Shown one piece after another: positions 41,356 to 61,059 of a stretch of 64,000 nucleotides of DNA. The stretch comes from Escherichia coli. Its GTDB lineage: Bacteria > Pseudomonadota > Gammaproteobacteria > Enterobacterales > Enterobacteriaceae. The stretch's first letter is position 1, and every line of letters starts with the position of its first letter. A program made the position numbers and the translations under genes. The DNA is taken from assembly GCF_003018115.1 (NCBI RefSeq), contig NZ_CP027457.1; one strand, written 5' to 3'. The notes under the pieces are model-generated. The model saw only the letters and a list, made by a program, of their open reading frames with translations, was not told where the DNA came from and searched no databases.

Positions 41356-41613
41356 TCAATTATATTTTATAATTTGTTGTATTGCTGACTTTATATTGCC
41401 AATGACATCCTCATCATTAAATTCATTTAATATATTTTTTAGAATAGGATGTAGTTTAATATCACCTAAAATACCTGCCGAAATAATCACTTCATCAAAA
41501 ATTATGTTTTTTTGCAGTTCATAAATTATAGCAGTTATAACACGATTATCTTTTCTTTCTGCCAGTCCGCTTATAGCTTCAATTCTGGCACAATCATTCT
41601 TATCTGTCAGCAT
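41356..41613 (-). pseudogene. 85-codon ORF with HEAT-like repeat character; possible remnant of a gene disrupted by the adjacent H-repeat element
   Basis: Starts 13 nt after the H-repeat ORF stop, in a different frame, with no convincing RBS. Repeat-like AISGLAE.../ILGDIKLHPILKNIL pattern. Weak call. Confidence 0.25.
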
Positions 41614-41625: not shown

Positions 41626-42762
41626 TTACGAAAGCCCGCTCCCCGCAAGGACTGACGCCAGATAGTTTCTGTCCATGGCTGCTTTTCGCATCTTACGTCT
41701 TAACCCTGCCTTGAATACCTTATCATTCGTCAAAATATTAATAGCAATGTGCCGTATCCCTGAAAATAATTCTGCTGCATTTCCTCTTCTTATCTTGCAG
41801 TCGTCTTCATTCATTACCACGTCCAGACGCCAGTGCAGCTTATTCTCCACGTGCCAGTGGTTTCGGATTGCTGTGGCGAACTTCTCTGCGGTTAAATCAG
41901 CAGAACTGATATAATATCTGACCGTCATTTCTGGTTCTTTCTTTTGTTCTGCTATTATGGACCGAAAGGAGACTGCCACGCATAATTTCTTCAGCCCTTT
42001 CCATTCAAACGTGAAATCAATAAGTTCATAAGGGACATCGCAAACAATATGAAGACGGATCTCTTCTCTGCCGTGACTCTTTTCACTGATTGCGTAACTG
42101 TCATGCTCTGGATTATTTAATTCTTTCAGCGGAAATTTTTCCTCAAAGGCTTTATTTAGCCGCCCCTGGTTTCCTTTTACCGCGAATAAATAATCACCTC
42201 CCTGTTTTTGTATCTTCTCTGCAATATCTTTCTGGCAACCCATCGCATCAGTTGTGATGATTTTTCCTTTAATATCCAGCATGTTAAGAAGTTCTGGGAT
42301 AGCTGTAATCTCATTAGATTTCTCATCCGTCTTGATCTGTCCGATGACCAGACTGTGCATTGTTGAGAACGCACTAATGACATGAATCGCTCCCCTGCGG
42401 CGACTCTTGTCATAAGAGTGCCGGAGCGTTTTTCCATCAATTGCAATGACGTCTTTATCATCTGAAGAATGGCAGTCACGCATCCAGTTAATAAAGCACT
42501 CGTGAAATTTTGCAGGACTGATACAGGATACAACTCTGGCAATGGTATCGTGAACAGGAATACCATTTTCAAAATCACCATATTGCTTCAAAAAATCGAG
42601 ATGTGTTTCCCCAAAATCCTCTATATCTTCCCAGCCTTCTGCACCAGAAATAACGGCACAAATAGTCAACAGTAGAATATCAGATAATTTATGTTCCACT
42701 TTCCAGGCTTGTCTGTAATCAGGGATAAGAGAAATATGTTCCATCAATTTTTTAAGCTCCAT
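41626..42762 (-). mobile_element. H-repeat (ISAs1-family) transposase-like ORF, 378 aa, of the kind found beside Rhs elements
   Basis: [64 protein letters not shown] is the H-repeat protein N-terminus as I recall it; sits between ybgA and the Rhs locus. Confidence 0.85.
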
Positions 42763-43420
42763 TTTGTTCTCCTTAATTATGTAAGGAGTATTTGATCATG
42801 TATAAGCAATAAAAAACAGCTTCAGGTAATGAGGAATATCTCAATTTTTAAACATAAAATGCGAATTATTTAGTACAAAAAGTGAACTTCTGATGATCTT
42901 TCCCTGTGATTGCTTCCCGTTTCCCGATACGGCGGCGCGGGGAGTCATAAAGGTAAGAAATTTCCAGCAGTACGGCGTCCTATTGTTCACGGCGGTAATG
43001 CACCAGCCAGTATTGGCTATCGTAGTGATAACCGTGTAACCTGCCGCCGCATCGCGTATCTAATGTTCATTCTTTTCCATAAACCGTCCGTACACATTGT
43101 GATAGTAAAAATACAATACATCTTCGCTGATGCGGTTATTCTGCTGCATGTGGGAAGCGCCGAATACTGCTCCCGGTATGGCCAGTAATTACTATTTAGT
43201 ACGACGTTAGGGGGAGTCACTTAATCTCACAGATACTTCAAGTAACAGATGAAAATCGCTCCTGAAATGAAAAAAGAATTTTTTTTGAATGTGTTTCTGT
43301 CAAATCAAGTGGTTTTTTCGTCGATATGTAGAGTCATATTGTACACAAAATAGTTACGAAACACACCTTGGTAAAATATTTGAATCGACTGTACAGTGGA
43401 TTATTTTGTGTGTATTACAT

Positions 43421-43675
43421 TCAACACTTGCCCATCTTTTTCGCTATTAGTATTGTAAAATTTCCTCCTAACGTCTTCGGTTGTTTTCCCTCGATTTTCC
43501 AACAATTATTGTCATCTGTAATACTATATGGTTTCTGAAATTCTGCTTTTTCTTTCCCGTATACATATTTAATGTAAACATATGATAATTCCAAAGCCAT
43601 TTCACGACTATTTACTAAAATTTCCACAGGATTTTCTTTTCCAAATACTGAGTGTGATATTGTAAACAATATCAT
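43421..43675 (-). CDS. small hypothetical protein, 84 aa; candidate orphan immunity protein
   Basis: ORF directly downstream of a short toxin-like open frame (about 43712-43849, minus strand) in the Rhs-associated AT-rich region. No family recognised. Confidence 0.3.
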   Translation of the reverse strand: MILFTISHSVFGKENPVEILVNSREMALELSYVYIKYVYGKEKAEFQKPYSITDDNNCWKIEGKQPKTLGGNFTILIAKKMGKC

Positions 43676-43870
43676 AATAAGTAATATTAGTGAGTTTCTC
43701 GTGTTCTACACCTATCGAATCTCAAAAGTTGTGGGTAAAACATTACATTCAGAATATATGATATTCTTACCATCGGAATCCATTTTTCCAAATCGACCTT
43801 CTGGTGTACCTGGATATCCATTAAGAACATGTTTTTCCGAATGGTTAATTTATTTTCTCAGGAAGATGTT

Positions 43871-44440
43871 TTATTTTTCTTCACTACGAAGCAGTTCATG
43901 CTGTATTTTTGTTAAACATTCGTAAGACTCATCTTTGTTCGGGAGATGTGCTGTCATTCGAGCATAAGTTGGCTTCTCATCTTTAAAATATTTAACCATG
44001 ATTGAATTATCAAGGACTGCCAACAACTGAGCTGGATCACTGCTCTTTTTTTGATAGATACCCGCTCTTATATAACTTCTAAACCGATCGCCGAGAAACG
44101 CCGTTTTTTCTGCTGTATTTATCAACTCCTGCAACGTTCCTTTGATGGTATGATTTTCATTAAGGCGTAGTGACCCGACGCGAATTAAGAGTCTCGCCCC
44201 GCTTGGTGTGAATTTATTATTTTTACATGTGCCCAGTTCTGTTTGCCAATAATACTCACCGATGTCCTCATTCTGATACCATCTCCACATGGCTTTATTA
44301 TTTAAGACAGGAAACGCGGAAAAAATAGTACCCTTAGCGAAAATAGTAAAACAATCATGATCTTTAGCTTGTATTTCGCAATCAGCTATAACACCAAAAC
44401 TAACAAATATCATCAGCAAAAAGAACAAAACTCTTTTCAT
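43871..44440 (-). CDS. Rhs immunity candidate with a Sec signal peptide, 189 aa (YbfC-like)
   Basis: Starts inside the last codons of the Rhs gene (4-nt overlap). N-terminus [21 protein letters not shown] is a classical signal peptide with a V-I-A cleavage motif. Confidence 0.6.
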
Positions 44441-47400
44441 TTTCTTATTCCTCTCGATGTTCTCTGTTTCATTTTAGCTAAAATTTCACCCAAATCATCT
44501 ATCCCTGCTGTTGCTGGCCCATCGGGTTTATTAATGTCTGGGAATAAATAGGGTTCTGCACAAGTATATCCTGGTGGTAATTGAGTTGTTGGCCAATTTG
44601 TCTGTGGCAGGTAATCACTTGCTGTCTTTGTATCCATCCCTGGATACTGGGGATCATCCTGTGGCGTACAAGTCAGATTTGGTTTTACCCACTTCCTGCA
44701 ATACAGTGTGTAGTCGTAAGGGCTTAATACTCTGAAGAATGTTTTGAAAACATTAGGCGCACTACTGGCCTGGTCAATAGGATATGGCAGTCTTAATTGT
44801 TTCGCTATGTCTGGCAATTTACTTGGATCGGGCGTAGGCGGTTTGTTGGGTCTCGCTCCATATCCGCCATTATTTAAGTGTCCATATTTTGATGCCAGTC
44901 CCATTGAATCTATATACTGAACCGGATTCAACGGATACTGATAAAAATTCCATCCCCCCTTCAGTCCAATCGGATCCTGAGTGATATATCGCCCCTGCAG
45001 CGGGTCATAATAGCGGTGGCGGTTGTAATACAGGCCGGACTCCTCATCATACTGCTGCCCCGGCAGGCGGATAAGCTGCTGCAGCTGATGCGGGTTCTCT
45101 TCATTCAGCAGGTTGCCCCACTCATCGTATTCTGCGCACCATTCTGTTGCCCCTTCCGTGCTGATAAGCACCAGCGGCAGGCCGCGATGGTCGCAGTGGT
45201 ACAGGTGAATTTTTCGCGCCGGCGTGTACACCGGGTCCAGCTGGTTTTGCATCTGCTTCACCGTCAGGCCGCACGATGCCAGCCAGCGGCGGCTTTCCTC
45301 ACTCACCCGGTCAGCCAGGATTTCACTTTCCAGCCGGTCGAGCATCTGCACCAGCACCGGCGGGAACACCACACTGCCACCGTCTTCGCCGCCGGACTGC
45401 TGAAGCGCATCCGCCAGGCTGCGGCGCTGCGTTTTCGCCAGCTCACCGGTGGCGGTTTCAACCCTGATGAGTGGCGTGAAGCTCCCCGGCTGATAAATCG
45501 TCTGGATGCGGGTTCTGTCGTTCTGTATTGTGGTCAGCCGGTCGCCGTCCCAGCCGTACCAGGTCACTTGCGGTTTCCGTGACAGCGACATCCAGCCCGT
45601 CAGGTCCCGTTCACGTCGCCACACCCGTTTTGCCACCCTGCGGCCCAGCGGGTCGTAAAGATAGCGACTTTCGACCAGCGGCTCTGCATATTGTGTCCGC
45701 GTGTAGTGCACCAGCCGGTGCTGACTGTCGTAATGGTACCGGTGGGTGCGCTCATCATCCGTGCGGATAACCCCTTCCGGGATGAGGTCGGTTTTCTCTG
45801 TCAGTCTGCCGTGACGGTCATACCGGTAAAGATAGTGCGCGTCACGGGCGATACGGTTATCCGGCCACATGCTGAGGGTGCTGTCCGGGTGCAGCTCCGG
45901 GTCGGGCAGGCGGTTACCTGCCGGGTCTGTGGCATACGGGATGCGGATATCCAGAGTTGAGGTGGTGGTGTGAACGCCGGTCAGCCTGCCGGTGGTGCTG
46001 TAGCTGTAACTCCGGGTATGGCGCGGGCTGCTGATGCGGATGAGTTCGCCGTTGTCGTTCCAGGTGTAATCGCGGTCATACTGCAGGCTGTTCAGGTGCT
46101 GACGCTGTAACTGCCCGGCAGGGGTGTAAGCGGTGGTGAGTTCATAACGGCCGAAGCTGCGCAGCGTTTCCCGGTGCAGGCGGTCGCGGGTGAAATCCAC
46201 CAGCGGTGTGTCGCCGAGCTTCATGCCTGCCAGGTAACCGCTGCCGTAGGCCAGCCATTCCACGGCGGGCAGGCTGTCCGGTATACAGCGGTTCGCCAGT
46301 CCCTGCGCGTTGTACGCATGTCTGGTCTCATGCTGCCAGAGCAGTGCTTCCGTCTGCGGGTGATGCACCGTCTGACGCTCACCGGTCAGCCGGCCTTTCT
46401 CATCATACCCGTAATGCACCGTCACCCGGTGCCCTTCGCTGATATGGCTGATGTCTGTCAGCCAGCCGCGTTCGTCGTACCGCCACCGCTCTGCGGTTTC
46501 ACCCTTCACGGTGCGCTGCGTGAGGCGGTCTGCTTCGTCATAGTGCCAGTGGGTGACCAGCCCCTCATCCTCGCTGCGGATAAGTTTGCCGGTCAGGTCG
46601 TGGTGATAACGCTGTGTGCGGCCGTCAAAGCCGGTTTCCTGTATCAGCCGGTCGAGTACATCGTAACGGAAGGTGGTGTGGCTGCCGTTTTCACTGGTCA
46701 GGCGGATGACCCGTCCGGCAGCATTGTATTCCATACTGCGCGTCAGACCGCCCTGCGTGGTACGGATGGCCTTTCCCCACGCATCGTACTGTGTCCCGTT
46801 TCTGCTGCCGTCCGGGGCAATGACGGCGGTCAGGTCACCGGCGATGTTGTATTCATACCGCATTTCATGGCCCTGCATGTCTTTCACCGCAATTAACTGT
46901 CCACGGCTGTCGTATGCACGGTACTGGCTCAGCCCTTCCTCGCGGTGCACCGCCGTCATCTGCCCGAAGCGGTCATGGTCATAACGGGTTACATAACCGG
47001 AACAGTCGGTGAAGCTCAGCAACTGGCCGTAACGGCTCCATGTCATGGTTTTCCGGCTGCCGGTGGCATCGTCCGTTGCGCAGGGTAAGTCACTGTGTGG
47101 ATTATCATAACGGTAGCGGGTGATATCGCCGTTGTGTGCAGTTTCCTGAATCAGACGGCCCAATTCATCATATTCCCGGCGTATTTCCAGCCCGTCTGGC
47201 CCGGTGGCTGACGTTAACTGGCTGTGGTGGTTATAGTAAAACGCCGATGCCCTGCCATCCGGCGTGGTGATGCGCGTGATGAGTCCCGTCACCACATCCG
47301 GGCTGTACTCAGTCGTCCGGCCTGCGGCATCCGTCTGTGCCTTAAGCCTGCCCACCGCGTCAAACTGACTCTGCGTGACGCTGCCGTCCGCGTGTTCCTT

Positions 47401-48636
47401 TTTCACCACCCGCTTCAGCCCGGCTTCACCCTGCGTGTGCAGGACTTCACGGCGGTCCAGGCTGTCGGTGATGGTGATGCGGTCTTTCTCATACTGATAC
47501 GTGTAGCTTAAGCCTGCCGGGTTTAGCTGTTCTGTCACCCGCCCGTCGCGGTCGTAACGGTAACGGATTTCCGGTCGGCCCGTGTGACGGTGCGCCACCA
47601 TCCGGCCCCGGTATTTATCATCGTAAGTAAAGCTGCGCACCTGTGTATTGCTGCGGTCATACACCGCCGCCAGTTCGCCGCGCGGCGTCCAGCCATAGCG
47701 CACCAGCGGCGCGGCAGGTAAATTCTCCGGGTATTCCGGGTCGTGCGTCAGCCACACGGCAGACAGACGGATGCCGTTGTCCCGGCCATATTCGGTGTAA
47801 CCCGGCAGGGTATCAGGAAAAGCGGACGGTTCCGTCCCGCCGGAAATGGCCTGCTGCCGGGCTTCTTCTGCCCGCTGCGCCTGCGTGGTCAGTACCAGCC
47901 GGAAGTGACGCCCGGCACCATCCGTCACGCCGGTGATTTCGCCGCTGAATTCACCGGCGGCTTCGCGGTGGAACGTCTGTGTGCGCCCGAAGCGGTCCAC
48001 CAGCCCGGTCAGTACCCGGTACGGCGGCAGCGGCGCAGGCAGCACCTCATCCGCTTCCGGCACCCGCTCACACCAGCCGAGCAGCCACCACGGCCCCTGC
48101 GGGCTGTTTGTCGCCAGATAACGATGCGGACTTAAGCGGAGTTCTTCCGGCAGCGCCTGCCAGAGTGCGGCCAGCCGGTGACCTTCATCCAGTTTCGCCA
48201 CACCGCCGCGCACCAGCCACAGTGACTCGCTGCGGCTGTAACCGTCCTCACGGGGAAACAGGTGCTCAAAATACAGGCTTCTGCCGCCGTTATCACTGAG
48301 TATCAGTGTGTTATCGCGCAGCTGTAAGCGGATATCCGCAGGCATTTTCCAGCCGGGGCCGAGGCTCCCCACCGGCGCGGGCGTTTTTGTCCGGTAACTG
48401 CTGTAGGTGCGGGAGAGAATGAACGGCAGCGGGGCGGGCAGGGCGATGTCGGTTTCACCGGGAAGGACCTTTGCACCCAGCAGCGGATTGACCGGATGGC
48501 CGGACGTCACTCCGCCGGGGCACACCGAACAGGCCACGCCGGTGGGGGCACCAATGCGCACCCCGGCTGAACCCTGGACAATGCTACCGCCATACTGCGT
48601 CATGTCGCCCTGACGCGCCGCCGGTTTTCCGCTCAT
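44437..48636 (-). CDS. rhsC: Rhs-family polymorphic toxin, 1399 aa: conserved core with YD repeats, then a ~150-aa variable C-terminal toxin domain after [27 protein letters not shown]
   Basis: N-terminus [33 protein letters not shown] and YD-repeat core match E. coli Rhs proteins as remembered; locus position next to ybfA/kdp corresponds to rhsC. C-terminal domain family not recognised. Confidence 0.9.
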
Positions 48637-48878: not shown

Positions 48879-49085
48879 TCAGTAAAAATCACCAGTTGCC
48901 TTTTCGGCCTGATCCATCCACACCGGTTTATCGCTGGTTTTCGACCAGACGCGATGCAGGTAGCTGTAAAAGCGGGCGCGGTCTTTCCAGAAAAGCATGA
49001 AAGGCAGCGCCAGAACGCCCGCTGCAACCGCATAAGTACGGCGTAAAAAGATAAGCCATGCAGGATATTCTCTGTAGAGTTCCAT
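48879..49085 (-). CDS. ybfA: small membrane protein, 68 aa (DUF2517)
   Basis: [33 protein letters not shown]; synteny between the Rhs locus and kdp. Confidence 0.8.
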
Positions 49086-49294
49086 ACTTTTCTCCCCCTT
49101 TTGTATCTACCCGGTGAATAGCACCGGAAAAATGAATTTGTTTATCTGATGAAAATAGTACCGCCTTTTGTGTAATTTTACTACTCATCCGACCACTTAT
49201 TTTTGCTTATTGATGGTTTATTTACATTCACCCTGTAATTAAGTTACACAAAAGTTAAATTAATACTAAACATTAGTTAAATCATGGCTTTTGC

Positions 49295-49325
49295 CATTTT
49301 TATACTTTTTTTACACCCCGTCCGC
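49295..49325 (+). promoter_or_regulatory. KdpE-binding site / kdpFABC promoter element (TTTTTATACTTTTTTACACCCCGTCCG)
   Basis: T-rich direct-repeat sequence about 75-100 bp upstream of kdpF, matching my memory of the KdpE operator. Confidence 0.5.
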
Positions 49326-49397
49326 AGATTTTTGCGAAATCTTTGCAGCCAGAATTCTACCCTTCCGGTATCACTTTTAGGCCACTGGAGGTGCACT

Positions 49398-49487
49398 GTG
49401 AGTGCAGGCGTGATAACCGGCGTATTGCTGGTGTTTTTATTACTGGGTTATCTGGTTTATGCCCTGATCAATGCGGAGGCGTTCTGA
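49398..49487 (+). CDS. kdpF: K+-transporting ATPase small subunit KdpF, 29 aa, GTG start
   Basis: [29 protein letters not shown] lies inside the longer tracked ORF 49284-49487; its stop overlaps the kdpA start (TGATG). Confidence 0.8.
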
Positions 49488-51160
49488 TGGCTGCGCAAGG
49501 GTTCTTACTGATCGCCACGTTTTTACTGGTGTTAATGGTGCTGGCGCGTCCTTTAGGCAGCGGGCTGGCGCGGCTGATTAATGACATTCCTCTTCCAGGT
49601 ACAGCGGGCGTTGAACGTATACTCTTTCGTTTACCTGGCGTCTCTGACCATGAGATGAACTGGAAGCAGTATCTCTGTGCCATTCTCGGCCTGAACATGC
49701 TGGGGCTGGCGGTGCTGTTTTTTATGTTGCTCGGTCAGCACTATCTGCCGCTTAATCCACAGCAGTTGCCGGGGCTGTCGTGGGATCTGGCGCTGAATAC
49801 CGCCGTCAGCTTTGTCACGAATACCAACTGGCAATCTTATAGCGGTGAAACCACGTTGAGCTATTTCAGCCAGATGGCAGGCTTAACGGTACAAAACTTT
49901 CTTTCTGCCGCCAGCGGGATTGCGGTGATTTTTGCCCTCATTCGTGCATTTACCCGCCAGAGCATGAGCACACTCGGGAATGCCTGGGTCGATCTGCTAC
50001 GCATCACGTTATGGGTGCTCGTCCCTGTGGCGTTGGTGATCGCACTGTTTTTTATTCAACAAGGTGCGCTGCAAAACTTTCTGCCCTATCAGGCAGTGAA
50101 TACCGTTGAAGGAGCGCAACAGCTGTTACCAATGGGTCCGGTGGCTTCTCAGGAAGCGATCAAGATGCTCGGCACTAACGGCGGTGGTTTCTTTAATGCC
50201 AACTCGTCGCATCCGTTTGAAAACCCAACCGCACTGACCAACTTCGTGCAGATGCTGGCGATCTTCTTGATCCCAACAGCGCTGTGCTTTGCCTTTGGTG
50301 AAGTGACGGGCGATCGCCGCCAGGGGCGCATGTTGCTGTGGGCGATGTCGGTGATTTTTGTCATCTGCGTAGGCGTGGTGATGTGGGCAGAAGTTCAGGG
50401 TAATCCTCATCTGCTGGCGCTGGGTGCGGACAGCAGCATCAATATGGAAGGTAAAGAGAGCCGTTTCGGCGTGTTGGTCAGTAGCCTGTTTGCGGTCGTG
50501 ACTACGGCGGCGTCCTGTGGCGCGGTGATTGCGATGCATGATTCGTTTACCGCTCTCGGTGGCATGGTGCCGATGTGGCTGATGCAAATTGGTGAAGTGG
50601 TATTCGGCGGTGTCGGTTCTGGTCTTTACGGCATGATGCTGTTTGTCCTGCTGGCGGTGTTTATTGCCGGGCTGATGATTGGTCGTACACCGGAATATCT
50701 GGGTAAAAAAATCGACGTACGTGAGATGAAACTGACTGCACTGGCGATTCTGGTCACCCCGACGCTGGTGCTGATGGGCGCGGCGCTGGCAATGATGACC
50801 GACGCCGGACGTAGCGCCATGCTCAACCCTGGCCCGCATGGTTTTAGCGAAGTGCTGTACGCCGTGTCATCCGCCGCTAACAACAACGGCAGCGCCTTTG
50901 CCGGATTAAGCGCCAACTCTCCGTTCTGGAACTGTTTACTGGCGTTCTGCATGTTTGTCGGTCGCTTCGGGGTGATTATCCCGGTGATGGCAATTGCCGG
51001 TTCGCTGGTGAGTAAAAAGAGCCAACCCGCCAGCTCCGGCACGCTGCCAACGCACGGCCCGCTGTTTGTTGGCCTGTTAATCGGCACCGTGTTGCTGGTT
51101 GGCGCACTGACCTTTATCCCTGCCCTGGCGCTTGGTCCGGTGGCGGAATATCTCTCCTGA
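49487..51160 (+). CDS. kdpA: K+-transporting ATPase subunit A, 557 aa
   Basis: Start at [26 protein letters not shown] inside the tracked ORF; polytopic membrane protein. Confidence 0.95.
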
Positions 51161-51182
51161 TGATATTGAGTGAGCACTGAAT

Positions 51183-53231
51183 ATGAGTCGTAAACAACTG
51201 GCGCTATTCGAACCAACACTTGTCGTTCAGGCGCTGAAAGAAGCGGTGAAAAAATTAAACCCGCAGGCGCAATGGCGCAATCCGGTGATGTTTATCGTCT
51301 GGATCGGCAGTCTGCTGACCACCTGTATTAGCATCGCGATGGCAAGCGGTGCGATGCCCGGCAATGCGCTGTTTAGCGCGGCCATTAGCGGTTGGCTGTG
51401 GATCACCGTACTGTTCGCTAATTTCGCCGAGGCGCTGGCAGAAGGCCGCAGTAAAGCGCAGGCCAACAGTCTGAAAGGGGTGAAAAAAACTGCCTTTGCC
51501 CGCAAGCTGCGTGAGCCGAAATATGGCGCTGCGGCGGACAAAGTTCCTGCCGATCAACTTCGTAAAGGCGATATCGTACTGGTAGAAGCTGGCGATATTA
51601 TCCCCTGCGATGGTGAAGTTATTGAAGGGGGTGCATCGGTCGATGAAAGCGCCATCACCGGGGAATCGGCACCGGTGATCCGTGAATCCGGCGGCGATTT
51701 TGCCTCCGTCACTGGCGGCACGCGTATTCTTTCTGACTGGCTGGTGATTGAGTGTAGCGTTAACCCCGGCGAGACATTTCTGGATCGGATGATCGCGATG
51801 GTGGAAGGCGCACAGCGACGTAAAACGCCGAACGAGATTGCCCTGACCATCCTGCTGATTGCCCTGACTATCGTCTTTTTACTGGCAACCGCCACGCTGT
51901 GGCCGTTTTCCGCGTGGGGCGGTAATGCAGTCAGTGTAACGGTACTGGTGGCGCTGCTGGTCTGTCTGATCCCAACCACTATTGGCGGCCTGTTGTCAGC
52001 GATCGGCGTCGCCGGGATGAGTCGGATGCTGGGCGCGAATGTGATTGCCACCAGCGGACGTGCAGTTGAAGCGGCAGGTGACGTTGACGTTCTGCTGCTG
52101 GATAAAACCGGCACCATCACACTCGGTAACCGTCAGGCATCGGAGTTTATCCCCGCGCAGGGCGTGGATGAAAAAACACTGGCTGACGCCGCACAACTGG
52201 CTTCGCTGGCTGATGAAACGCCGGAAGGCCGCAGTATTGTGATCCTCGCCAAGCAACGTTTTAACCTGCGCGAGCGCGATGTGCAGTCGCTCCATGCCAC
52301 CTTTGTACCGTTTACTGCGCAAAGCCGGATGAGCGGGATAAACATCGACAACCGCTTGATCCGTAAAGGTTCTGTCGATGCCATTCGCCGCCATGTTGAG
52401 GCTAACGGTGGTCACTTCCCTGCCGATGTTGATCAAAAAGTCGATCAGGTTGCGCGTCAGGGAGCCACGCCGCTGGTGGTGGTGGAAGGTTCTCGTGTGC
52501 TGGGTGTTATTGCGCTGAAAGATATCGTCAAAGGCGGTATTAAAGAGCGCTTCGCCCAGCTGCGTAAAATGGGCATTAAAACGGTGATGATTACCGGCGA
52601 TAACCGTCTGACTGCCGCCGCGATTGCTGCGGAAGCGGGTGTCGATGATTTTCTCGCCGAAGCGACACCGGAGGCCAAGCTGGCATTGATCCGTCAGTAT
52701 CAGGCGGAAGGCCGTTTGGTAGCGATGACCGGCGACGGCACCAACGATGCTCCGGCGCTGGCGCAGGCAGATGTCGCGGTGGCGATGAACTCTGGTACTC
52801 AGGCGGCGAAAGAAGCGGGCAATATGGTGGATCTCGACTCTAACCCGACCAAGTTGATCGAGGTGGTGCATATTGGCAAACAGATGCTGATGACCCGTGG
52901 CTCGCTGACCACCTTCAGCATTGCCAACGATGTGGCGAAATACTTCGCCATTATTCCGGCGGCATTCGCGGTAACGTATCCACAGTTAAATGCGCTGAAC
53001 ATCATGCGCCTGCATTCGCCCGACTCCGCCATTCTCAGTGCGGTCATTTTCAACGCCTTGATTATCGTCTTTTTGATTCCCCTGGCGTTAAAAGGCGTGA
53101 GTTATAAACCGCTTACCGCTTCTGCCATGTTGCGCCGTAACTTATGGATTTACGGTCTGGGTGGGCTGCTGGTGCCGTTTATTGGTATCAAAGTCATTGA
53201 TTTACTGCTGACCGTTTGCGGTCTGGTGTGA
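51183..53231 (+). CDS. kdpB: K+-transporting P-type ATPase subunit B, 682 aa
   Basis: P-type ATPase motifs DKTGTIT and [12 protein letters not shown]. Confidence 0.95.
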
Positions 53232-53239
53232 GGTTTACC

Positions 53240-53812
53240 ATGCGTGGATTACGTCCGGCATTATCGACATTTATCTTTCTGTTATTGATTACTGGCGGTG
53301 TTTACCCGCTGCTGACCACCGCGCTGGGGCAATGGTGGTTTCCCTGGCAGGCCAACGGTTCGTTGATCCGTGAAGGTGATACGGTGCGGGGTTCGGCATT
53401 AATCGGGCAGAATTTTACCGGCAACGGCTATTTTCATGGTCGCCCGTCGGCAACGGCAGAAATGCCTTATAATCCACAGGCTTCTGGCGGGAGCAATCTG
53501 GCAGTCAGTAACCCGGAGCTGGATAAACAGATAGCCGCACGCGTTGCTGCATTACGGGCCGCTAACCCGGATGCCAGCGCGAGCGTTCCGGTTGAACTGG
53601 TGACGGCATCGGCAAGCGGGCTGGACAATAACATCACCCCACAAGCGGCGGCCTGGCAGATCCCACGCGTAGCGAAAGCGCGTAATCTCAGCGTTGAACA
53701 GCTCACGCAACTGATCGCAAAATACAGCCAACAACCACTGGTGAAATATATCGGCCAGCCGGTCGTCAACATTGTCGAACTCAATCTGGCGCTGGATAAA
53801 CTTGATGAATAA
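53240..53812 (+). CDS. kdpC: K+-transporting ATPase subunit C, 190 aa
   Basis: Start placed at the second in-frame ATG ([20 protein letters not shown]). Confidence 0.9.
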
Positions 53813-56489
53813 CGAACCCTTACGTCCCGACCCCGATCGTCTGCTGGAACAAACTGCCGCGCCGCATCGGGGGAAGCTGAAAGTTTTCTTCGGTGCCTGC
53901 GCAGGCGTCGGGAAGACCTGGGCGATGCTGGCAGAAGCCCAGCGACTGCGGGCGCAAGGGCTGGATATTGTGGTTGGCGTGGTAGAAACCCACGGGCGGA
54001 AAGATACCGCCGCCATGCTGGAAGGGCTGGCTGTTCTGCCGCCAAAACGCCTGGCGTACCGTGGGCGGCACATCAGCGAGTTTGATCTCGATGCCGCCCT
54101 CGCCCGCCGTCCGGCGCTGATCTTAATGGACGAACTGGCGCACAGTAATGCGCCAGGTTCTCGTCATCCTAAACGCTGGCAGGATATCGAAGAACTGCTG
54201 GAAGCTGGCATTGATGTTTTCACAACCGTCAACGTTCAGCATCTGGAAAGTCTGAATGATGTGGTCAGCGGCGTCACCGGAATTCAGGTACGGGAAACCG
54301 TGCCCGATCCTTTTTTCGATGCCGCCGACGACGTGGTGCTGGTGGACTTGCCCCCGGACGATCTGCGCCAGCGGCTGAAAGAAGGCAAAGTCTATATTGC
54401 TGGGCAGGCGGAGCGCGCCATTGAACATTTTTTCCGCAAAGGCAATCTGATCGCCCTGCGCGAACTGGCACTGCGCCGTACTGCCGATCGCGTTGATGAG
54501 CAAATGCGCGCCTGGCGGGGGCATCCTGGCGAAGAGAAAGTCTGGCACACGCGCGACGCGATCCTTTTATGCATCGGCCATAACACCGGCAGCGAAAAAC
54601 TGGTCCGCGCGGCGGCGCGGCTGGCGTCACGGCTGGGGAGCGTCTGGCACGCGGTGTATGTTGAAACCCCTGCCCTGCATCGCTTACCGGAGAAAAAACG
54701 TCGGGCAATTCTCAGCGCCTTACGTCTGGCGCAGGAGCTGGGCGCGGAGACGGCAACACTTTCTGATCCAGCGGAAGAGAAAGCGGTAGTGCGTTATGCC
54801 CGTGAACATAATCTCGGCAAGATTATTCTCGGTCGCCCAGCCTCGCGCCGCTGGTGGCGTCGGGAAACGTTTGCTGACCGACTGGCGCGCATCGCCCCCG
54901 ATCTCGATCAGGTGCTGGTCGCGCTTGATGAACCACCCGCCCGCACGATTAACAACGCGCCGGATAGCCGCTCTTTTAAAGACAAGTGGCGGGTACAGAT
55001 TCAGGGATGCGTGGTTGCCGCCGCGTTATGCGCCGTTATCACCTTAATTGCCATGCAGTGGCTGATGGCGTTTGATGCCGCCAACCTGGTGATGCTGTAT
55101 CTACTTGGCGTGGTGGTGGTGGCGCTATTTTATGGACGCTGGCCTTCGGTGGTTGCTACCGTCATTAATGTGGTGAGTTTCGATCTCTTTTTTATCGCCC
55201 CACGCGGCACGCTCGCCGTCTCTGATGTGCAATATCTGCTGACCTTCGCGGTGATGTTAACCGTCGGGCTGGTGATCGGGAACCTTACTGCGGGTGTGCG
55301 TTATCAGGCGCGGGTAGCCCGTTACCGCGAGCAACGCACACGGCACTTATATGAAATGTCGAAAGCTCTGGCTGTGGGCCGCAGTCCGCAGGACATCGCC
55401 GCCACCAGCGAACAATTTATTGCCTCCACGTTTCATGCCCGCAGCCAGGTATTGTTACCCGATGACAACGGTAAATTGCAGCCGTTAACGCATCCGCAAG
55501 GAATGACGCCGTGGGACGATGCCATCGCGCAGTGGAGTTTTGATAAAGGCCTGCCTGCGGGTGCGGGCACCGACACGTTACCCGGCGTGCCATATCAGAT
55601 TTTGCCGTTAAAAAGCGGTGAGAAAACTTACGGGCTGGTGGTGGTGGAACCGGGGAATCTGCGCCAGTTGATGATCCCGGAACAGCAGCGCCTGCTGGAG
55701 ACGTTTACGCTGTTAGTCGCCAATGCGCTTGAGCGGCTGACGCTGACCGCCAGCGAAGAACAGGCGCGGATGGCAAGCGAACGTGAACAGATCCGCAACG
55801 CCCTGCTGGCAGCGCTTTCGCATGATTTACGCACTCCGCTCACGGTGTTGTTCGGTCAGGCAGAAATCTTAACGCTCGATCTGGCAAGCGAAGGATCGCC
55901 CCACGCCCGCCAGGCCAGCGAGATTCGTCAGCATGTGCTGAACACTACCCGACTGGTGAATAATCTACTGGATATGGCGCGAATTCAGTCCGGCGGCTTT
56001 AATTTGAAGAAAGAGTGGTTAACGCTGGAAGAAGTAGTCGGCAGCGCGCTGCAAATGCTGGAACCGGGTTTATCGTCGCCCATCAATCTTTCTCTGCCAG
56101 AACCGCTGACCTTAATCCACGTTGACGGGCCACTCTTTGAACGGGTGCTGATTAATCTGCTGGAGAACGCGGTGAAATATGCGGGTGCGCAGGCCGAAAT
56201 TGGTATCGATGCCCACGTTGAGGGCGAAAATCTACAACTGGATGTCTGGGATAACGGCCCCGGTCTTCCGCCAGGCCAGGAGCAGACGATATTTGATAAG
56301 TTTGCTCGCGGGAATAAAGAGTCGGCAGTACCGGGGGTAGGGCTTGGACTGGCAATTTGTCGGGCGATTGTGGATGTACACGGCGGCACCATTACCGCGT
56401 TCAACCGACCGGAAGGTGGTGCCTGTTTTCGTGTTACACTTCCCCAGCAAACCGCTCCTGAACTTGAAGAATTTCATGAGGATATGTGA
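53805..56489 (+). CDS. kdpD: sensor histidine kinase KdpD, 894 aa
   Basis: Start at [16 protein letters not shown]; N-terminal P-loop GACAGVGKT, membrane segments, C-terminal HisKA ([10 protein letters not shown]) and ATPase domains; overlaps kdpC by 8 nt. Confidence 0.9.
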
Positions 56490-57163
56490 CAAACGTTCTG
56501 ATTGTTGAAGATGAACAAGCTATTCGTCGCTTTCTGCGCACGGCGCTGGAGGGCGACGGGATGCGCGTCTATGAGGCCGAAACGCTGCAACGCGGCTTGC
56601 TGGAAGCGGCTACCCGTAAGCCAGATTTGATTATTCTCGATCTCGGCCTGCCCGATGGTGATGGGATTGAGTTTATCCGCGACCTGCGCCAGTGGAGCGC
56701 GGTGCCGGTGATTGTGCTTTCCGCACGCAGCGAAGAGAGCGACAAAATCGCCGCGCTGGATGCCGGAGCTGATGATTACCTGAGTAAGCCGTTTGGCATT
56801 GGCGAATTGCAGGCCCGTCTGCGCGTCGCCTTACGCCGCCATTCAGCCACCGCCGCACCCGATCCGCTGGTGAAATTTTCCGATGTGACCGTCGATTTAG
56901 CCGCCCGCGTGATTCACCGGGGTGAGGAAGAGGTGCATCTTACGCCAATTGAATTTCGCCTGCTGGCGGTGCTGCTCAACAATGCCGGAAAAGTGCTCAC
57001 CCAGCGCCAACTCCTTAACCAGGTATGGGGGCCAAACGCGGTCGAACACAGTCACTATTTGCGTATTTATATGGGACATCTGCGACAAAAACTGGAACAG
57101 GATCCCGCCCGCCCCCGCCATTTCATTACTGAAACCGGTATTGGTTATCGGTTTATGCTTTAG
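56486..57163 (+). CDS. kdpE: OmpR-family response regulator KdpE, 225 aa
   Basis: Receiver domain with DLIILDLGLPDGDG and a winged-helix C-terminus; 4-nt overlap with kdpD. Confidence 0.95.
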   Translation: MTNVLIVEDEQAIRRFLRTALEGDGMRVYEAETLQRGLLEAATRKPDLIILDLGLPDGDGIEFIRDLRQWSAVPVIVLSARSEESDKIAALDAGADDYLSKPFGIGELQARLRVALRRHSATAAPDPLVKFSDVTVDLAARVIHRGEEEVHLTPIEFRLLAVLLNNAGKVLTQRQLLNQVWGPNAVEHSHYLRIYMGHLRQKLEQDPARPRHFITETGIGYRFML

Positions 57164-57171
57164 GCGGTTAA

Positions 57172-57312
57172 ATGCTGGATCCGGCGTGAACGCCTTATCC
57201 GGCCTACAAAATAGCTTAAATTCAATAAATTGCACCATCCTCGCAGGCCTGATAAGCATAGCGCATCAGGCAGTCATAAGTAAAAAAGGGCGATCTTGCG
57301 ACCGCCCTTTTT
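57172..57312. repeat. REP units (57172-57272) followed by a bidirectional terminator hairpin AAAAAGGGCGATCTTGCGACCGCCCTTTTT (57283-57312) between kdpE and pgm
   Basis: Palindromic GGCGTGAACGCCTTATCCGGCCTAC / GCAGGCCTGATAAGCATAGCGCATCAGGC units and a GC hairpin flanked by A- and T-runs. Confidence 0.6.
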
Positions 57313-57326
57313 CTTATTTAATGTGT

Positions 57327-58967
57327 TTACGCGTTTTTCAGAACTTCGCTAACAATCTCAACCGCTTCTTTCTCAATCTGCTTGCGATGTTCTTCACCGA
57401 GGAAGCTTTCGCAGTAGATCTTATATGCGTCTTCCGTGCCTGACGGACGCGCGGCGAACCAGCCGTTGTCAGTCATCACTTTCAGACCGCCAATAGAAGC
57501 ACCGTTGCCCGGAGCAGCAGTCAGGCGCGCGGTGATCGGGTCACCAGCCAGGGTGCTGGCGCTCACCATTTCCGGAGACAGCTTAGACAGCGCCGCTTTT
57601 TGTGCGGAAGTCGCAGCTGCCTGCAAACGGTTGTAGCTCGGCGCACCAAAGCGTTTTGCCAGTTCGTTGTAGTGTTCCTGCGGGTTCTTACCGGTGACAG
57701 CGGTGATTTCCGCCGCCAGCAGACACATGATGATGCCGTCTTTGTCGGTGGACCACGGCGTGCCGTCGAAACGCAGGAAGGAAGCCCCTGCGCTCTCTTC
57801 GCCGCCAAAGCCGAAGCTGCCGTCGAACAGACCATCAACAAACCATTTGAAACCTACCGGGACTTCTACCAGCTTACGACCCAAGTCATTGACCACACGG
57901 TCGATCATCGCAGAAGAAACCAGCGTTTTACCAACGGCAACATCTTTGCCCCACTGCGGACGATGCTGGAACAGGTAATTGATCGCCACCGCCAGGTAGT
58001 GGTTCGGATTCATCAAACCTGCCGGAGTGACGATACCGTGACGGTCATAATCCGGGTCGTTAGCAAACGCCAGATCGAACTTATCACGCAGTGCCAGCAG
58101 GCCCGCCATCGCACACTCGGAGGAGCAGTCCATACGGATCGCGCCGTCTTTATCAAGGTGCATAAAGCGGAAGGTTTGATCGACCTGATCGTTAACGATA
58201 GTCAGGTTGAGGTTGTAATACTCGCCAATACGCTTCCAGTATTCGATACCGGAACCGCCCAGCGGATCAACGCCAAGCGTCAGGCCCGCTTTCTGAATCG
58301 CCGCCATATCAACGATATCGGCCAGCCCTTCCACGAACGGCTGCACCAGATCCTGCTCTTTCACATGACCGGATGCCATCGCTTCGTCGAGGGAGATACG
58401 CTTCACGCCTTTCAGGCCATCGGCCAGCAGTGCGTTGGCACGATCTTCCACCACTTTAGTGACGTTGGTATCAGCCGGGCCACCATTTGGCGGATTGTAC
58501 TTGATACCACCATCTTCCGGCGGGTTATGGGACGGTGTAATAACGATACCGTCTGCCAGCGGGCCACCTTTTTTATTGTGAACCAGGATGGCATTGGAAA
58601 CGGCAGGCGTCGGGGTGAAGCCATTGTTTTCCTGCACAATAACATCTACGCCGTTCGCTGCCAGCACTTCCAGAACGGAAATAAATGCAGGTTCGGACAG
58701 GGCGTGAGTATCTTTACCCACATAGCAAGGGCCAGTGATGCCGTTTTTCGCACGTTCTTCAGCAATTGCCTGAGCGATCGCCAGAATGTGCGGCTCGTTA
58801 AAGCTGTGGCGCGCTGCACTGCCACGGTGACCGGAAGTACCGAATTTCACCGCGTGCTCCGCATTCCCTGCTTCTGGTTTCAGTACATAATATTGCGCCG
58901 TCAGTTGGGCGACGTTAATCAAATCACTCTGTTGTGCAGGTTGGCCTGCACGATTGTGGATTGCCAT
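57327..58967 (-). CDS. pgm: phosphoglucomutase, 546 aa
   Basis: Start at [16 protein letters not shown] inside the tracked ORF; phosphoserine loop GTSGHRGS near the N-terminus. Confidence 0.9.
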
Positions 58968-58992
58968 TGCTTTGTCCTTTGTCTGCAACGTG

Positions 58993-59538
58993 TTAGATAG
59001 TTCCGCAAACCTTCTCAATCAATTCCGCCGGGAATTGCATCGACTGCATGATGTGTTCGATCATGCTGCATTTACGGCCGGTGTTGGTGTTGGTGATCAC
59101 CCAATACGGCGTGCCTGGCACATGTTTCGGCTTGGTCTGATTACCATTTTTCAGCAGCGTTTGTTCATCTGCCGCAAAGTAAACGCGCGTACGACCGTGC
59201 AACGATTCCGTTGCTTCGGCAAACGCCTGGGCGTCAAGAGAATATAGTGTAGACAACAGCAGCATAAAGCGATTGACCGCTCGCTTTTGCTCTGCGTATT
59301 CATCCGAAAGCAGAAGTTCACGCATTGCGCGAACCTTGTCTTTAATCGTTTTGACCGGCTTCGCTTCGACGATAGCAGGTGACGCAACGCGAACCTCTTT
59401 CGTCACCGGAGCAGCAGGCTGTGATGCGGCGGAAAATTTCAACATACGCCGTAAAATGTCGGATGCGCTCTCGCCGATATGCTTAGTGTGGCTGGCAATA
59501 TAGCTGTAGAGTTCATCATCAACTTCAATCGTTTTCAT
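58993..59538 (-). CDS. seqA: replication initiation negative regulator SeqA, 181 aa
   Basis: Start at [35 protein letters not shown] inside the tracked ORF. Confidence 0.9.
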
Positions 59539-59722
59539 CTTAATCCAGTGCAGTGTCTTAGCTGAATACAAGTCGCCAGGAGTATATGAATAAATCCCGG
59601 CAGCGGATAGCGTCAAGCCTGGCTTGCAGAAAAACTCGGAATAAACCTTATTTGTTGCAGCCCTGTGGCACAATGGTCAACATAATACCCTAACCCGACA
59701 ACGCGAAAAAAAGAACTTTGCC

Positions 59723-60487
59723 ATGAAATTGAATATCCGCGCGCAAACTGCACAAAACCAGCACAATAATTCTCCCATCGTTCTTGTCCACGGTCTGTTT
59801 GGCAGCCTCGACAACCTTGGCGTACTGGCTCGCGATCTGGTAAACGATCACAATATCATCCAGGTTGATATGCGTAACCACGGTCTTTCACCGAGAGATC
59901 CGGTGATGAATTACCCGGCGATGGCGCAGGATCTTGTTGATACCCTGGATGCACTGCAGATCGACAAAGCAACATTTATCGGTCACTCCATGGGCGGTAA
60001 AGCGGTAATGGCACTTACTGCACTGGCCCCCGATCGCATCGATAAACTGGTGGCGATCGATATCGCACCGGTCGACTATCACGTACGCCGTCATGATGAG
60101 ATTTTCGCGGCTATCAACGCGGTCAGTGAATCGGACGCACAAACTCGCCAGCAAGCAGCAGCAATAATGCGCCAGCATCTAAATGAAGAAGGGGTGATTC
60201 AGTTTCTGTTGAAATCTTTTGTTGACGGGGAGTGGCGTTTTAACGTGCCGGTATTGTGGGATCAGTATCCGCATATTGTGGGTTGGGAGAAAATCCCGGC
60301 ATGGGATCACCCTACCCTGTTTATCCCTGGTGGTAATTCTCCGTATGTTAGCGAGCAGTACCGTGATGATTTACTGGCACAATTTCCACAGGCACGGGCG
60401 CATGTGATTGCAGGCGCGGGTCACTGGGTCCATGCTGAAAAACCGGATGCGGTATTACGCGCTATCCGTCGCTATCTCAATGATTAA
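59723..60487 (+). CDS. ybfF: alpha/beta-hydrolase fold esterase, 254 aa
   Basis: GHSMGG nucleophile elbow and HGLFGS oxyanion region; synteny. Confidence 0.85.
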   Translation: MKLNIRAQTAQNQHNNSPIVLVHGLFGSLDNLGVLARDLVNDHNIIQVDMRNHGLSPRDPVMNYPAMAQDLVDTLDALQIDKATFIGHSMGGKAVMALTALAPDRIDKLVAIDIAPVDYHVRRHDEIFAAINAVSESDAQTRQQAAAIMRQHLNEEGVIQFLLKSFVDGEWRFNVPVLWDQYPHIVGWEKIPAWDHPTLFIPGGNSPYVSEQYRDDLLAQFPQARAHVIAGAGHWVHAEKPDAVLRAIRRYLND

Positions 60488-60626
60488 CGCAACTGATTAA
60501 AAACCCAGCGTCCGCGTCGCTTTCCGCGCGTGGGCGTTGGCGTGACTCATCGCGCTGATGTATTATGGCGCGCTATCCATCCGGGCAGAGGCCTGGCTGA
60601 TTGTTTCCCCCGAAGTCACCAAGATC

Positions 60627-60920
60627 ATGGCCAAAGAACAAACGGACCGTACGACATTAGATCTGTTCGCGCACGAGCGTCGACCGGGACGACCGAAAAC
60701 AAATCCGCTTTCGCGCGATGAACAGCTGCGTATTAATAAACGCAACCAACTAAAACGCGACAAAGTACGTGGCCTTAAGCGTGTCGAACTGAAGCTGAAC
60801 GCGGAAGCTGTCGAGGCGCTGAACGAGCTGGCGGAATCGCGCAATATGAGCCGTAGCGAACTGATCGAAGAGATGTTAATGCAGCAACTGGCGGCGCTGC
60901 GTAGTCAGGGCATCGTTTAA
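60627..60920 (+). CDS. ybfE: small CopG/ribbon-helix-helix-like protein (LexA-regulated), 97 aa
   Basis: Start at MAKEQTDRT inside the tracked ORF; synteny between ybfF and fldA. Confidence 0.7.
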
Positions 60921-61059
60921 ATTTCCACTTTCATGTAGCACAGTGTGCAGTCCTGCTCGTTTGCTGATTCCGCAAGACTGCCTGTTCTGCTATGATTGCC
61001 TTTATCCGTGGGCAATTTTCCACCCCCATTTCAATAAGTTTCAAGAGGTTATTTCACTC

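What the first reader, a model, noticed from the sequence alone, without database searches (positions are those of the whole stretch)
43871..44900. Rhs C-terminal toxin of unrecognised family paired with a signal-peptide-bearing immunity candidate
The Rhs core ends at [27 protein letters not shown]. The following ~150 residues ([30 protein letters not shown]...TSRGIRK) are proline-rich and match no toxin domain I recognise. The gene that overlaps its stop encodes a 189-aa protein with a clear Sec signal peptide. Immunity proteins normally sit where their toxin acts, so an exported immunity protein suggests the toxin works in the periplasm or envelope rather than on nucleic acid. As I remember the K-12 rhsC locus, a 189-aa exported protein (YbfC) sits behind an orphan Rhs fragment rather than behind the full-length gene; if so, this locus is a recombinant arrangement in which that orphan tip has been loaded onto the full-length Rhs.
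Basis: partly seen in the sequence, partly recalled or inferred. Interest (0 to 1): 0.55.

Follow-up and report, generated by a model that had tools for sequence, protein, structure and literature searches.

The report
Uncharacterised Rhs toxin with exported immunity partner
This is the E. coli rhsC locus, where a full-length Rhs protein carries a 152-residue toxin tip of no known family followed by YbfC, an exported protein that is probably its immunity partner; the pair is in about two-thirds of complete E. coli genomes but its activity has never been tested.

Summary
On the minus strand a 1399-aa Rhs protein (44437..48636) ends its core at residue 1247. It then carries a 152-aa, 14.5% proline tip. 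The tip's stop overlaps (ATGA) the start of a 189-aa gene that is K-12 YbfC with 5 substitutions.

The tip and YbfC match nothing in Pfam, NCBIfam, PADLOC, PHROGs or PDB sequences. Both families are small. Wherever the tip occurs, from Escherichia to Burkholderia, a YbfC relative follows it with a 4-bp overlap.

Every YbfC relative keeps an N-terminal signal peptide. Its cysteines behave as two disulfide pairs. The biochemical activity stays unknown: AlphaFold gave no usable toxin model.

But the "loaded" arrangement is not unusual. It is in 1073 of 5426 complete E. coli genomes, including O157:H7 EDL933, where it was already described in silico. The K-12-type arrangement is in 2534. An ancestral state and an excision product have the same structure, so the direction cannot be told.

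Verdict: a real, widespread, uncharacterised member of a known kind of system. Moderate interest.

The parts
44437..48636 (-). Full-length Rhs gene (1399 aa + stop), allele of the rhsC locus between ybfA/kdp and ybgA/phr
   Evidence: ORF list. NCBIfam RHS_core 2625 bits over residues 1-1247. Pfam DUF6531 and 13 RHS_repeat hits. The N-terminus reads [11 protein letters not shown] (literal PAAR motif). 97.1% nt identity to K-12 rhsC up to window 44908.
44896..45036 (-). End of the Rhs core: [27 protein letters not shown] demarcation motif (variant of PxxxxDPxGL)
   Evidence: Translation. TIGR03696 Rhs_assc_core covers residues 1170-1247.
44440..44895 (-). C-terminal tip, 152 aa, candidate toxin (identical in family to the K-12 YbfO tip)
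   Evidence: Translation. 2 aa differences from the K-12 YbfO tip. No match in any family library.
44440..44784 (-). Conserved core of the tip (tip residues ~38-152) with three conserved cysteines (C66, C76, C112) and D61, Y62, W69, D94, P107, G109, A130, D134, R151
   Evidence: 20-sequence alignment A3 reaching 25-39% identity. Deep search matches cover profile positions 34-151.
44437..44440 (-). ATGA overlap of the Rhs stop and the ybfC start; AGGA lies 9 nt upstream of the ATG
   Evidence: Coordinates and sequence. The same 4-bp overlap occurs in L003, L006 and L014.
43871..44440 (-). ybfC, 189 aa, candidate exported immunity protein
   Evidence: 5 aa differences from K-12 YbfC. Annotated 'protein YbfC' in RefSeq genomes. 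49 homologues, none with a Pfam domain.
44384..44440 (-). Codons 1-19 of ybfC: Sec-type signal peptide [19 protein letters not shown], predicted cleavage VIA|DC
   Evidence: Hydrophobicity and -3/-1 residues. An N-terminal hydrophobic leader is kept in all homologues, including those at 21-33% identity.
44908..45942 (-). 1035-bp core segment that K-12 carries twice (in rhsC and in ybfO); the substrate for tip insertion or excision
   Evidence: blastn of the window against K-12: window 49500-44908 = rhsC, window 45942-43832 = ybfO+ybfC. All sampled K-12-type genomes start the ybfO match at the same base.

Best explanation
The region is a polymorphic toxin-immunity module of the Rhs type.

Shown: a full-length Rhs shell protein with a PAAR-motif N-terminus carries a 152-aa tip of an undescribed family. 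The tip is invariably followed by a YbfC-family gene.

Inferred, step by step:
1. The tip is enclosed in the Rhs shell, cut off at the core-end motif and delivered by a type VI secretion spike into a neighbouring Gram-negative cell.
2. It acts in the periplasm or on the envelope, not on nucleic acid.
3. YbfC is exported by Sec and cleaved after VIA. It folds in the periplasm as a disulfide-bonded, mostly beta protein and neutralises the tip there by binding it.
4. The three conserved cysteines of the tip suggest that it too needs the oxidising periplasm to be stable or active. That would keep it harmless in the producer's cytoplasm.

The chemical activity and the target are not known. The tip has no membrane-spanning segment, so a classical pore is unlikely. 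The window's arrangement is one of two common alleles of the rhsC locus. It is either ancestral or produced by excision of the K-12-type primary tip (rhsC-CT + ybfB).
For: Rhs identity. PAAR motif in the sequence.

Pairing: every tip match in fetched loci is followed by a YbfC homologue. These are the metagenome loci L003-L005, L007 and L008, an NCBI genome assembly (L006), E. coli-like contigs L009 and L010, Phytobacter L014 and Burkholderia diffusa L017. Phytobacter L016 has a degraded copy, and Citrobacter youngae L015 keeps only short tip fragments beside its homologue. The two genes overlap by 4 bp in L003, L006 and L014 and by 14 bp in L007. Divergence runs in parallel: tip 70/33-36/33/~35% against YbfC 65/30-33/21/27%.

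Export: all homologues keep an N-terminal signal peptide ending ALA|, ASA|, AFA| or VIA|. C30 and C175 are invariant. C21 and C72 are both present in 22 sequences, both absent in 4, and never split. The only hydrophobic segment is the leader. UniProt calls the Salmonella homologue 'Periplasmic protein', and PMC6033998 lists ybfC as a putative secreted protein.

No nuclease or other cytoplasmic toxin family matched.

Type VI link: L003 has VgrG-type (Gp5_trimer_C), DUF2169 and PAAR-like genes next to the array. The Phytobacter full-length Rhs has the same PAAR-motif N-terminus.

Expression: rhsC core and ybfC are both reported as up in some STEC transcriptomes.

Field practice of reading periplasmic targets from exported immunity proteins: PMC10469887.
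Against: - No activity, binding or export was tested.
- AlphaFold2 gave a poor model of the tip alone (pLDDT 56.8, pTM 0.34).
- Fusing the tip to mature YbfC did not raise its confidence (tip blocks 30-80, overall pTM 0.50), so there is no predicted complex.
- Pfam does not detect a PAAR domain.
- No type VI gene was seen beside the locus: the 17.8 kb around it in the closest annotated genome lists none.
- K-12, which keeps the module as an orphan, is not known to have a type VI system (general knowledge).
- In O157:H7 the toxin gene is intact while ybfC is frameshifted. That fits a silent or periplasm-only toxin, but also a decaying module.
Confidence: 0.62

Rival explanations
1. The module is a genomic fossil in this strain. 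The Rhs gene is silent or has no secretion system to use, and the tip and ybfC persist only by linkage and occasional use as spare immunity.
For: No type VI gene is annotated in the 17.8 kb around the locus. About 2500 genomes carry the tip only as an unexpressed orphan. ybfC is frameshifted in two O157:H7 genomes. Immunity-only copies sit behind ISAs1 elements in Citrobacter, Pseudocitrobacter and Escherichia sp..
Against: The 4.2-kb Rhs reading frame is intact here and in 1073 genomes. dN/dS is 0.2-0.28. Tip and YbfC are conserved as a pair across genera down to about 25-35% identity. Transcripts are reported in STEC.
Confidence: 0.17
2. The tip acts in the cytoplasm (for example a small RNase-like alpha/beta toxin). 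YbfC is then not a classical immunity protein: it either intercepts the toxin in the periplasm before it crosses the inner membrane, or has an unrelated secreted function.
For: The predicted secondary structure of the tip (helix, three strands, C-terminal helix) is not incompatible with small nuclease folds. The proline-rich first ~37 residues are variable and could be an entry linker.
Against: No nuclease, deaminase or ART family matched at any threshold. There is no conserved His, and the candidate Glu (E114) is not conserved. Three conserved cysteines are unusual for cytoplasmic toxins. The strict tip-YbfC pairing with overlapping genes is the signature of cognate immunity.
Confidence: 0.1
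3. Arrangement, version A: the window carries the ancestral rhsC allele, with the YbfO-type tip never displaced. K-12-type genomes derive from it by one insertion of a core fragment + rhsC-CT + ybfB.
For: Every orphan must once have been attached (Jackson model, PMC2935791). All sampled K-12-type genomes share one ybfO 5' boundary (query position 459), as expected from a single insertion. The loaded allele spans a wide identity range (96.8-98.8%) and includes O157:H7, O169:H41 and others. Full-length Rhs proteins carry this tip in Phytobacter and Burkholderia.
Against: Excision between the 1035-bp repeats regenerates exactly the same structure. This is described as part of the Jackson model (PMC2935791) and, from my recollection of Koskiniemi et al. 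2014 (not read here), was seen experimentally in Salmonella. The Phytobacter locus is not syntenic with the window.
Confidence: 0.5
4. Arrangement, version B: the window derives from a K-12-type ancestor by homologous recombination between the rhsC core and the ybfO core fragment. This deleted rhsC-CT and ybfB and attached the orphan tip.
For: The window lacks exactly the K-12 interval between the two core copies. The mechanism is part of the published tip-displacement model (PMC2935791).
Against: Informative sites across the shared 1035 bp alternate between rhsC-like and ybfO-like states about ten times instead of switching once. The allele is too common and too diverse to be a recent event in this strain.
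Confidence: 0.5

Closest known systems
E. coli K-12 ybfO (b0703, pseudogene) / ybfC (b0704) orphan module
   Same: Same tip (2 aa differences) and same YbfC (5 aa differences), 98.2% nt identity, same chromosomal locus.
   Different: In K-12 the tip sits on a 477-codon core fragment behind rhsC-CT + ybfB and is annotated as a pseudogene. Here it is attached to the full-length 1399-aa Rhs.
EDL933 RhsC (z0847 fused with z0851) and putative immunity RhsCI (z0853), PMC7216683
   Same: Same arrangement and same tip (2 aa differences in the tip, 97.1% over the whole Rhs). The downstream ORF was already proposed as the immunity gene.
   Different: That work was in silico only. It offered a weak I-TASSER resemblance to VipE (TM 0.574), and none of the passages retrieved here mention a signal peptide on RhsCI. 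In current O157:H7 records ybfC is frameshifted, whereas it is intact in the window.
Rhs tip displacement and orphan re-attachment (Jackson et al. 2009, PMC2935791; Salmonella Typhimurium main/orphan rhs, PMC7043789)
   Same: A core fragment is retained on the orphan. Alternative alleles differ by presence or absence of one tip+immunity unit between direct core repeats.
   Different: No experimental or phylogenetic evidence here for the direction of change.
Periplasm-acting type VI effectors with Sec-exported immunity proteins (Tae/Tai, Tge/Tgi, Tlde1/Tldi1, Tle/Tli)
   Same: The immunity partner has a cleavable signal peptide and the toxin has none. The logic of self-protection only against sister-cell attack is the same (PMC10469887).
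   Different: No sequence or profile similarity to any of them. There is no conserved Cys-His or Glu catalytic pattern. The toxin is delivered as an Rhs tip rather than as a free cargo protein.
Tse5 (RhsP1) of Pseudomonas aeruginosa, an Rhs-delivered pore-forming toxin (PMC10684867)
   Same: An Rhs shell protein whose tip acts on the envelope rather than on nucleic acid.
   Different: From my recollection of that work (only its title and abstract were seen here), the Tse5 tip is hydrophobic and inserts in the membrane, and its immunity protein is a membrane protein. This tip has no hydrophobic segment, and YbfC is soluble after leader cleavage.

Membership tests
Rhs (YD-repeat) polymorphic toxin | RHS core with YD repeats | tested here: met
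   NF041261 RHS_core 2625 bits against a cut-off of 2000, residues 1-1247. 13 Pfam RHS_repeat hits plus PF03527.
Rhs (YD-repeat) polymorphic toxin | Core ends at the PxxxxDPxGL motif, followed by a variable tip | tested here: met
   [13 protein letters not shown], where DSMGL replaces DPxGL. Relatives have IDPLGL or IDALGL. The alignment to K-12 rhsC breaks at this point.
Rhs (YD-repeat) polymorphic toxin | Small co-oriented gene directly after the tip that varies with the tip | tested here: met
   ATGA overlap. A YbfC homologue follows every tip homologue.
Type VI secretion PAAR-Rhs effector | N-terminal PAAR domain | tested here: inconclusive
   Residues 5-8 read PAAR within [23 protein letters not shown]. 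Pfam reports DUF6531 (46-123) but no PAAR_motif hit, even at E<=10. PMC7216683 counts the long EDL933 Rhs proteins as PAAR-bearing.
Type VI secretion PAAR-Rhs effector | Genetic linkage to vgrG/eagR or demonstrated type VI-dependent delivery | tested here: not met
   The locus lies between ybfA/kdp and ybgA/phr, with no type VI gene in the annotated 17.8 kb. PMC7216683 calls rhsC an orphan not in a vgrG island. Linkage is seen only in the distant metagenome locus L003. Delivery is not testable here.
Cognate immunity protein (RhsI) | Binds and neutralises its own tip | not testable with these tools
   The fused AlphaFold2 model gave no confident interface (pTM 0.50, tip pLDDT unchanged).
Sec-exported periplasmic protein | n-, h- and c-regions with small residues at -3/-1, conserved in homologues | tested here: met
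   MKR / [13 protein letters not shown] / VIA|D, by inspection only (no SignalP available). Leaders are present in all 24+ homologues.
Sec-exported periplasmic protein | Structural disulfides | tested here: inconclusive
   C30 and C175 are invariant. C21 and C72 are present together or absent together (22 against 4, none mixed). Model coordinates could not be inspected.
Bacterial lipoprotein | Lipobox [LVI][ASTVI][GAS]C | tested here: not met
   The window has V-I-A-D-C, with Asp at -1. Some relatives have MASC, IGAC or MAAC, which would fit, but the distant ones lack this Cys altogether.
Known toxin domain families (nucleases, deaminases, ARTs, peptidoglycan hydrolases, lipases, colicin M-like) | Significant sequence or profile match | tested here: not met
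   Pfam on the single sequence and on all 20 members found none. NCBIfam, PADLOC and PHROGs found none. PDB by sequence and by profile gave a best E of 1.6-2.3.

The most novel reading that the evidence does not exclude
The YbfO-type tip founds a new class of type VI toxin. In this reading it is a small, cysteine-stabilised, non-membrane protein that becomes active only in the oxidising periplasm of the target. It blocks an essential envelope process by a mechanism unlike the known amidases, glycosidases, lipases, pores or lipid II hydrolases. YbfC, a K-12 protein of unknown function, would be its periplasmic antidote.
Probability: 0.2. Interest if true: 0.7.

Novelty: new member of a known kind. 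Interest (0 to 1): 0.4.

Why it matters
YbfC and YbfO are long-standing unknowns of the K-12 genome. The module sits in about two-thirds of complete E. coli genomes and is attached to a full-length Rhs in about one-fifth, including O157:H7.

This analysis gives YbfC a testable role as an exported immunity protein and gives the tip a testable site of action in the periplasm. That turns two unnamed genes into a simple two-plasmid experiment.

Most characterised Rhs tips are nucleases or other cytoplasmic enzymes, so an envelope-acting tip with no known fold could reveal a new antibacterial target. If it turns out to be a variant of a known hydrolase, the result is routine.

Tried and rejected
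1. Structure of the tip. AlphaFold2 on a 20-sequence alignment gave pLDDT 56.8 and pTM 0.34. I did not search folds with it.
2. Complex prediction. The tip-(G4S)6-mature YbfC fusion, with 7 paired and 36 unpaired rows, left the tip unchanged. The YbfC part reached pLDDT about 80-93 and the overall pTM was 0.50. No interface can be claimed.
4. Colicin M idea. The tip's [11 protein letters not shown] resembles the DxYDx5HR motif. I rejected this: the first Asp and the His are absent, and a profile search of the PDB found no colicin M structure.
5. Deaminase idea. The tip has C-A-E plus two other cysteines. I rejected this: the motif order is reversed and E114 is not conserved.
6. Lipoprotein idea for YbfC. 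Rejected for the E. coli protein (Asp at -1) and for the distant members, which lack the Cys.
7. Crossover mapping against K-12. Only 24 informative sites, in a mosaic pattern. Not decisive.
8. Synteny of the Phytobacter full-length copy with the window. Its flanks do not match, so it says nothing about ancestry at this locus.
9. Literature search for ybfC/ybfO. No functional study was found.
Full report
WHAT IS THERE

The window is the E. coli chromosome around the rhsC locus, and the genes of interest lie on the minus strand. A 1399-aa ORF occupies 44437..48636 and a 189-aa ORF occupies 43871..44440. The stop of the first and the start of the second share ATGA.

NCBIfam's RHS_core model covers residues 1-1247 at 2625 bits. 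Pfam finds DUF6531, PF03527 and many RHS repeats.

The tip is therefore residues 1248-1399, which is 152 aa at window 44440..44895. It is 14.5% proline and has no hydrophobic segment.

The flanks match ybfA/kdp on one side and ISEc1, ybgA, phr and dtpD on the other.

IDENTITY OF THE TWO PROTEINS

The 189-aa protein is K-12 YbfC with 5 substitutions. The tip is the tip of K-12 YbfO with 2 substitutions.

Neither matches any family in these libraries:
- Pfam, tested on single sequences and on every member of the alignments.
- NCBIfam, PADLOC and PHROGs.
- PDB sequences, tested by sequence and by profile.

HOW BIG ARE THE FAMILIES

A profile search of 1.84 billion representative proteins found only 28 tip relatives at E<=0.001. 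All of them lie at the C-terminal end of Rhs fragments.

An alignment reaching 25-39% identity defines a conserved core, tip residues ~38-152. It has three conserved cysteines (C66, C76, C112). Also conserved are D61, Y62, W69, D94, P107, G109, A130, D134 and a basic C-terminal end. There is no conserved His. The first ~37 residues are proline-rich and variable.

YbfC has 49 relatives in the word-indexed search. It has 9 loci among 100,044 species genomes. These are Citrobacter youngae and a Citrobacter MAG, Pseudocitrobacter, Escherichia sp., two loci in Phytobacter and one in Burkholderia diffusa. The other two are near-identical (97%) copies on contigs labelled as Flavobacterium and Nanosynbacter MAGs.

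Fold search adds uncharacterised relatives in Paracidovorax, Delftia, planctomycetes and Lentisphaera.

PAIRING

In every fetched locus with a tip homologue, the next gene is a YbfC homologue. These loci are:
- metagenome loci L003-L005, L007 and L008;
- an NCBI genome assembly, L006;
- E. coli-like contigs L009 and L010;
- Phytobacter L014, and L016 with a degraded copy;
- Burkholderia L017.

Citrobacter youngae L015 keeps only short tip fragments on either side of its YbfC homologue.

The two genes overlap by 4 bp in L003, L006 and L014 and by 14 bp in L007. Divergence of the two proteins runs in parallel.

The reverse does not hold. In three loci (Citrobacter, Pseudocitrobacter, Escherichia sp.) a YbfC homologue sits straight after an ISAs1 transposase with no tip. 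L006 has two tandem YbfC paralogues. Strict pairing one way, and immunity-only copies the other way, is what toxin-immunity modules show.

WHERE DOES IT ACT

YbfC begins MKR / [13 protein letters not shown] / VIA|DC, and the leader is its only hydrophobic segment. Every homologue keeps such a leader, including those at 21-33% identity (ALA|, ASA|, AFA|).

Two cysteines (C30, C175) are invariant. Two others (C21, C72) are both present in 22 sequences and both absent in 4, never split. This is the pattern of two disulfides and so of a protein that lives outside the cytoplasm.

The E. coli protein is not a lipoprotein, because it has Asp at -1.

The tip itself has three conserved cysteines and no signal peptide. 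I infer that it acts in the target's periplasm or on the envelope after type VI delivery, and that YbfC neutralises it there. The cysteines may also make the tip dependent on periplasmic oxidation.

This is the usual reading of exported immunity proteins (PMC10469887). None of it was tested.

WHAT THE TOXIN DOES

This stays open.
- AlphaFold2 gave pLDDT 56.8 for the tip alone.
- Fusing the tip to mature YbfC brought no improvement.
- In that fusion YbfC folded with pLDDT about 80-93 as a mostly beta protein.
- Its only PDB neighbours are generic sandwiches.

The lack of any hydrophobic stretch argues against a classical pore. The lack of a conserved His or Glu argues against the common hydrolase types. 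I considered colicin M-like and deaminase-like motifs and rejected both.

THE ARRANGEMENT

The window equals K-12 minus the interval between two copies of a 1035-bp core segment. Window 49500-44908 aligns to rhsC and window 45942-43832 aligns to ybfO+ybfC.

The allele is common, however:
- A junction-spanning query is covered in one piece in 1073 of 5426 complete genomes. These include O157:H7 EDL933 and O169:H41 strains.
- The K-12-type junction is in 2534 genomes.
- The tip+ybfC module itself is in 3613 genomes.

EDL933's RhsC and its putative immunity RhsCI (z0853) were described in silico in 2020 (PMC7216683).

In the displacement model (PMC2935791), insertion of a circle carrying core fragment + new tip + immunity creates the K-12 type, and excision reverses it. 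The ancestral and the excised states are therefore structurally identical.

All sampled K-12-type genomes share one ybfO boundary, as expected from a single insertion. The 24 sites that distinguish the two K-12 core copies are mosaic in the window. I cannot tell the direction.

EXPRESSION AND DELIVERY

- The N-terminus reads [11 protein letters not shown], but Pfam reports no PAAR domain.
- No type VI gene is annotated in the 17.8 kb around the locus in the closest annotated genome.
- A distant locus does have VgrG-type, DUF2169 and PAAR-like genes beside the array.
- One transcriptome study lists both rhsC core and ybfC as strongly up in a group of STEC strains, with caveats about read mapping (PMC6033998).

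VERDICT

The periplasm inference is reasonable and is now better supported. The 'recombinant' reading is only one of two equal possibilities for a common allele.

It is a new, uncharacterised member of a well-known kind of system. It is worth a simple wet-lab test but is not surprising to a specialist.

Noticed in passing
L018 7961-8531 (EDL933) and L019 756-1326 (O157:H7 F8798); corresponds to window 44417-44425: In two O157:H7 genomes the full-length Rhs with this tip is intact (same protein, WP_000015262.1), but ybfC is frameshifted. A C-to-T change plus one extra T turns codons 5-8 (TTG TTC TTT TTG here) into a run of nine T inside the signal-peptide codons. The toxin gene therefore has no intact exported partner. 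The tract might be slippage-prone.
   Followed up: partly
window 43421..43675 (-), and the 42910-43832 stretch: An 84-aa ORF annotated in RefSeq relatives as 'NTF2 fold immunity protein' lies after ybfC with no toxin gene in front of it. K-12 has no counterpart of this ~920-bp stretch. It is probably another orphan immunity gene of the array.
   Followed up: partly
window 41356..41613 (-) next to ISEc1 at 41626..42762 (-): An 85-aa ORF matches only the last 82 positions (202-283 of 285) of NCBIfam PRK09687 (YibA-like HEAT-repeat 'putative lyase', E 5e-26). It looks like the tail of an immunity-type gene cut off by the ISAs1-family element.
   Followed up: partly
L011 1657-2223, L012 5998-6564, L013 219-785: In a Citrobacter MAG, Pseudocitrobacter vendiensis and Escherichia sp. 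MOD1-EC7003, a YbfC homologue (71-72% identity) sits directly after an ISAs1-family transposase about 90-95% identical in translation to the window's ISEc1. No tip lies upstream. These are immunity-only copies linked to the H-repeat element.
   Followed up: partly
L006 4735-5301 and 5404-5976: Two tandem YbfC paralogues follow one tip in this genome assembly (GCA_024809975.1). The full-length Rhs upstream carries a different tip and a membrane-protein-like partner.
   Followed up: no
window 49000-64000 and 43300-45100: The best complete E. coli genomes are only 99.2-99.4% identical over 15 kb of kdp-pgm-chiP flank and over the module itself. The source strain is therefore not among the 5426 complete RefSeq genomes.
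   Followed up: no
L009 and L010: Two short contigs labelled as Flavobacterium psychrophilum and Candidatus Nanosynbacter MAGs carry this tip and ybfC at 97% protein identity to E. coli. They are almost certainly E. coli contamination or mis-binning in those MAGs.
   Followed up: no
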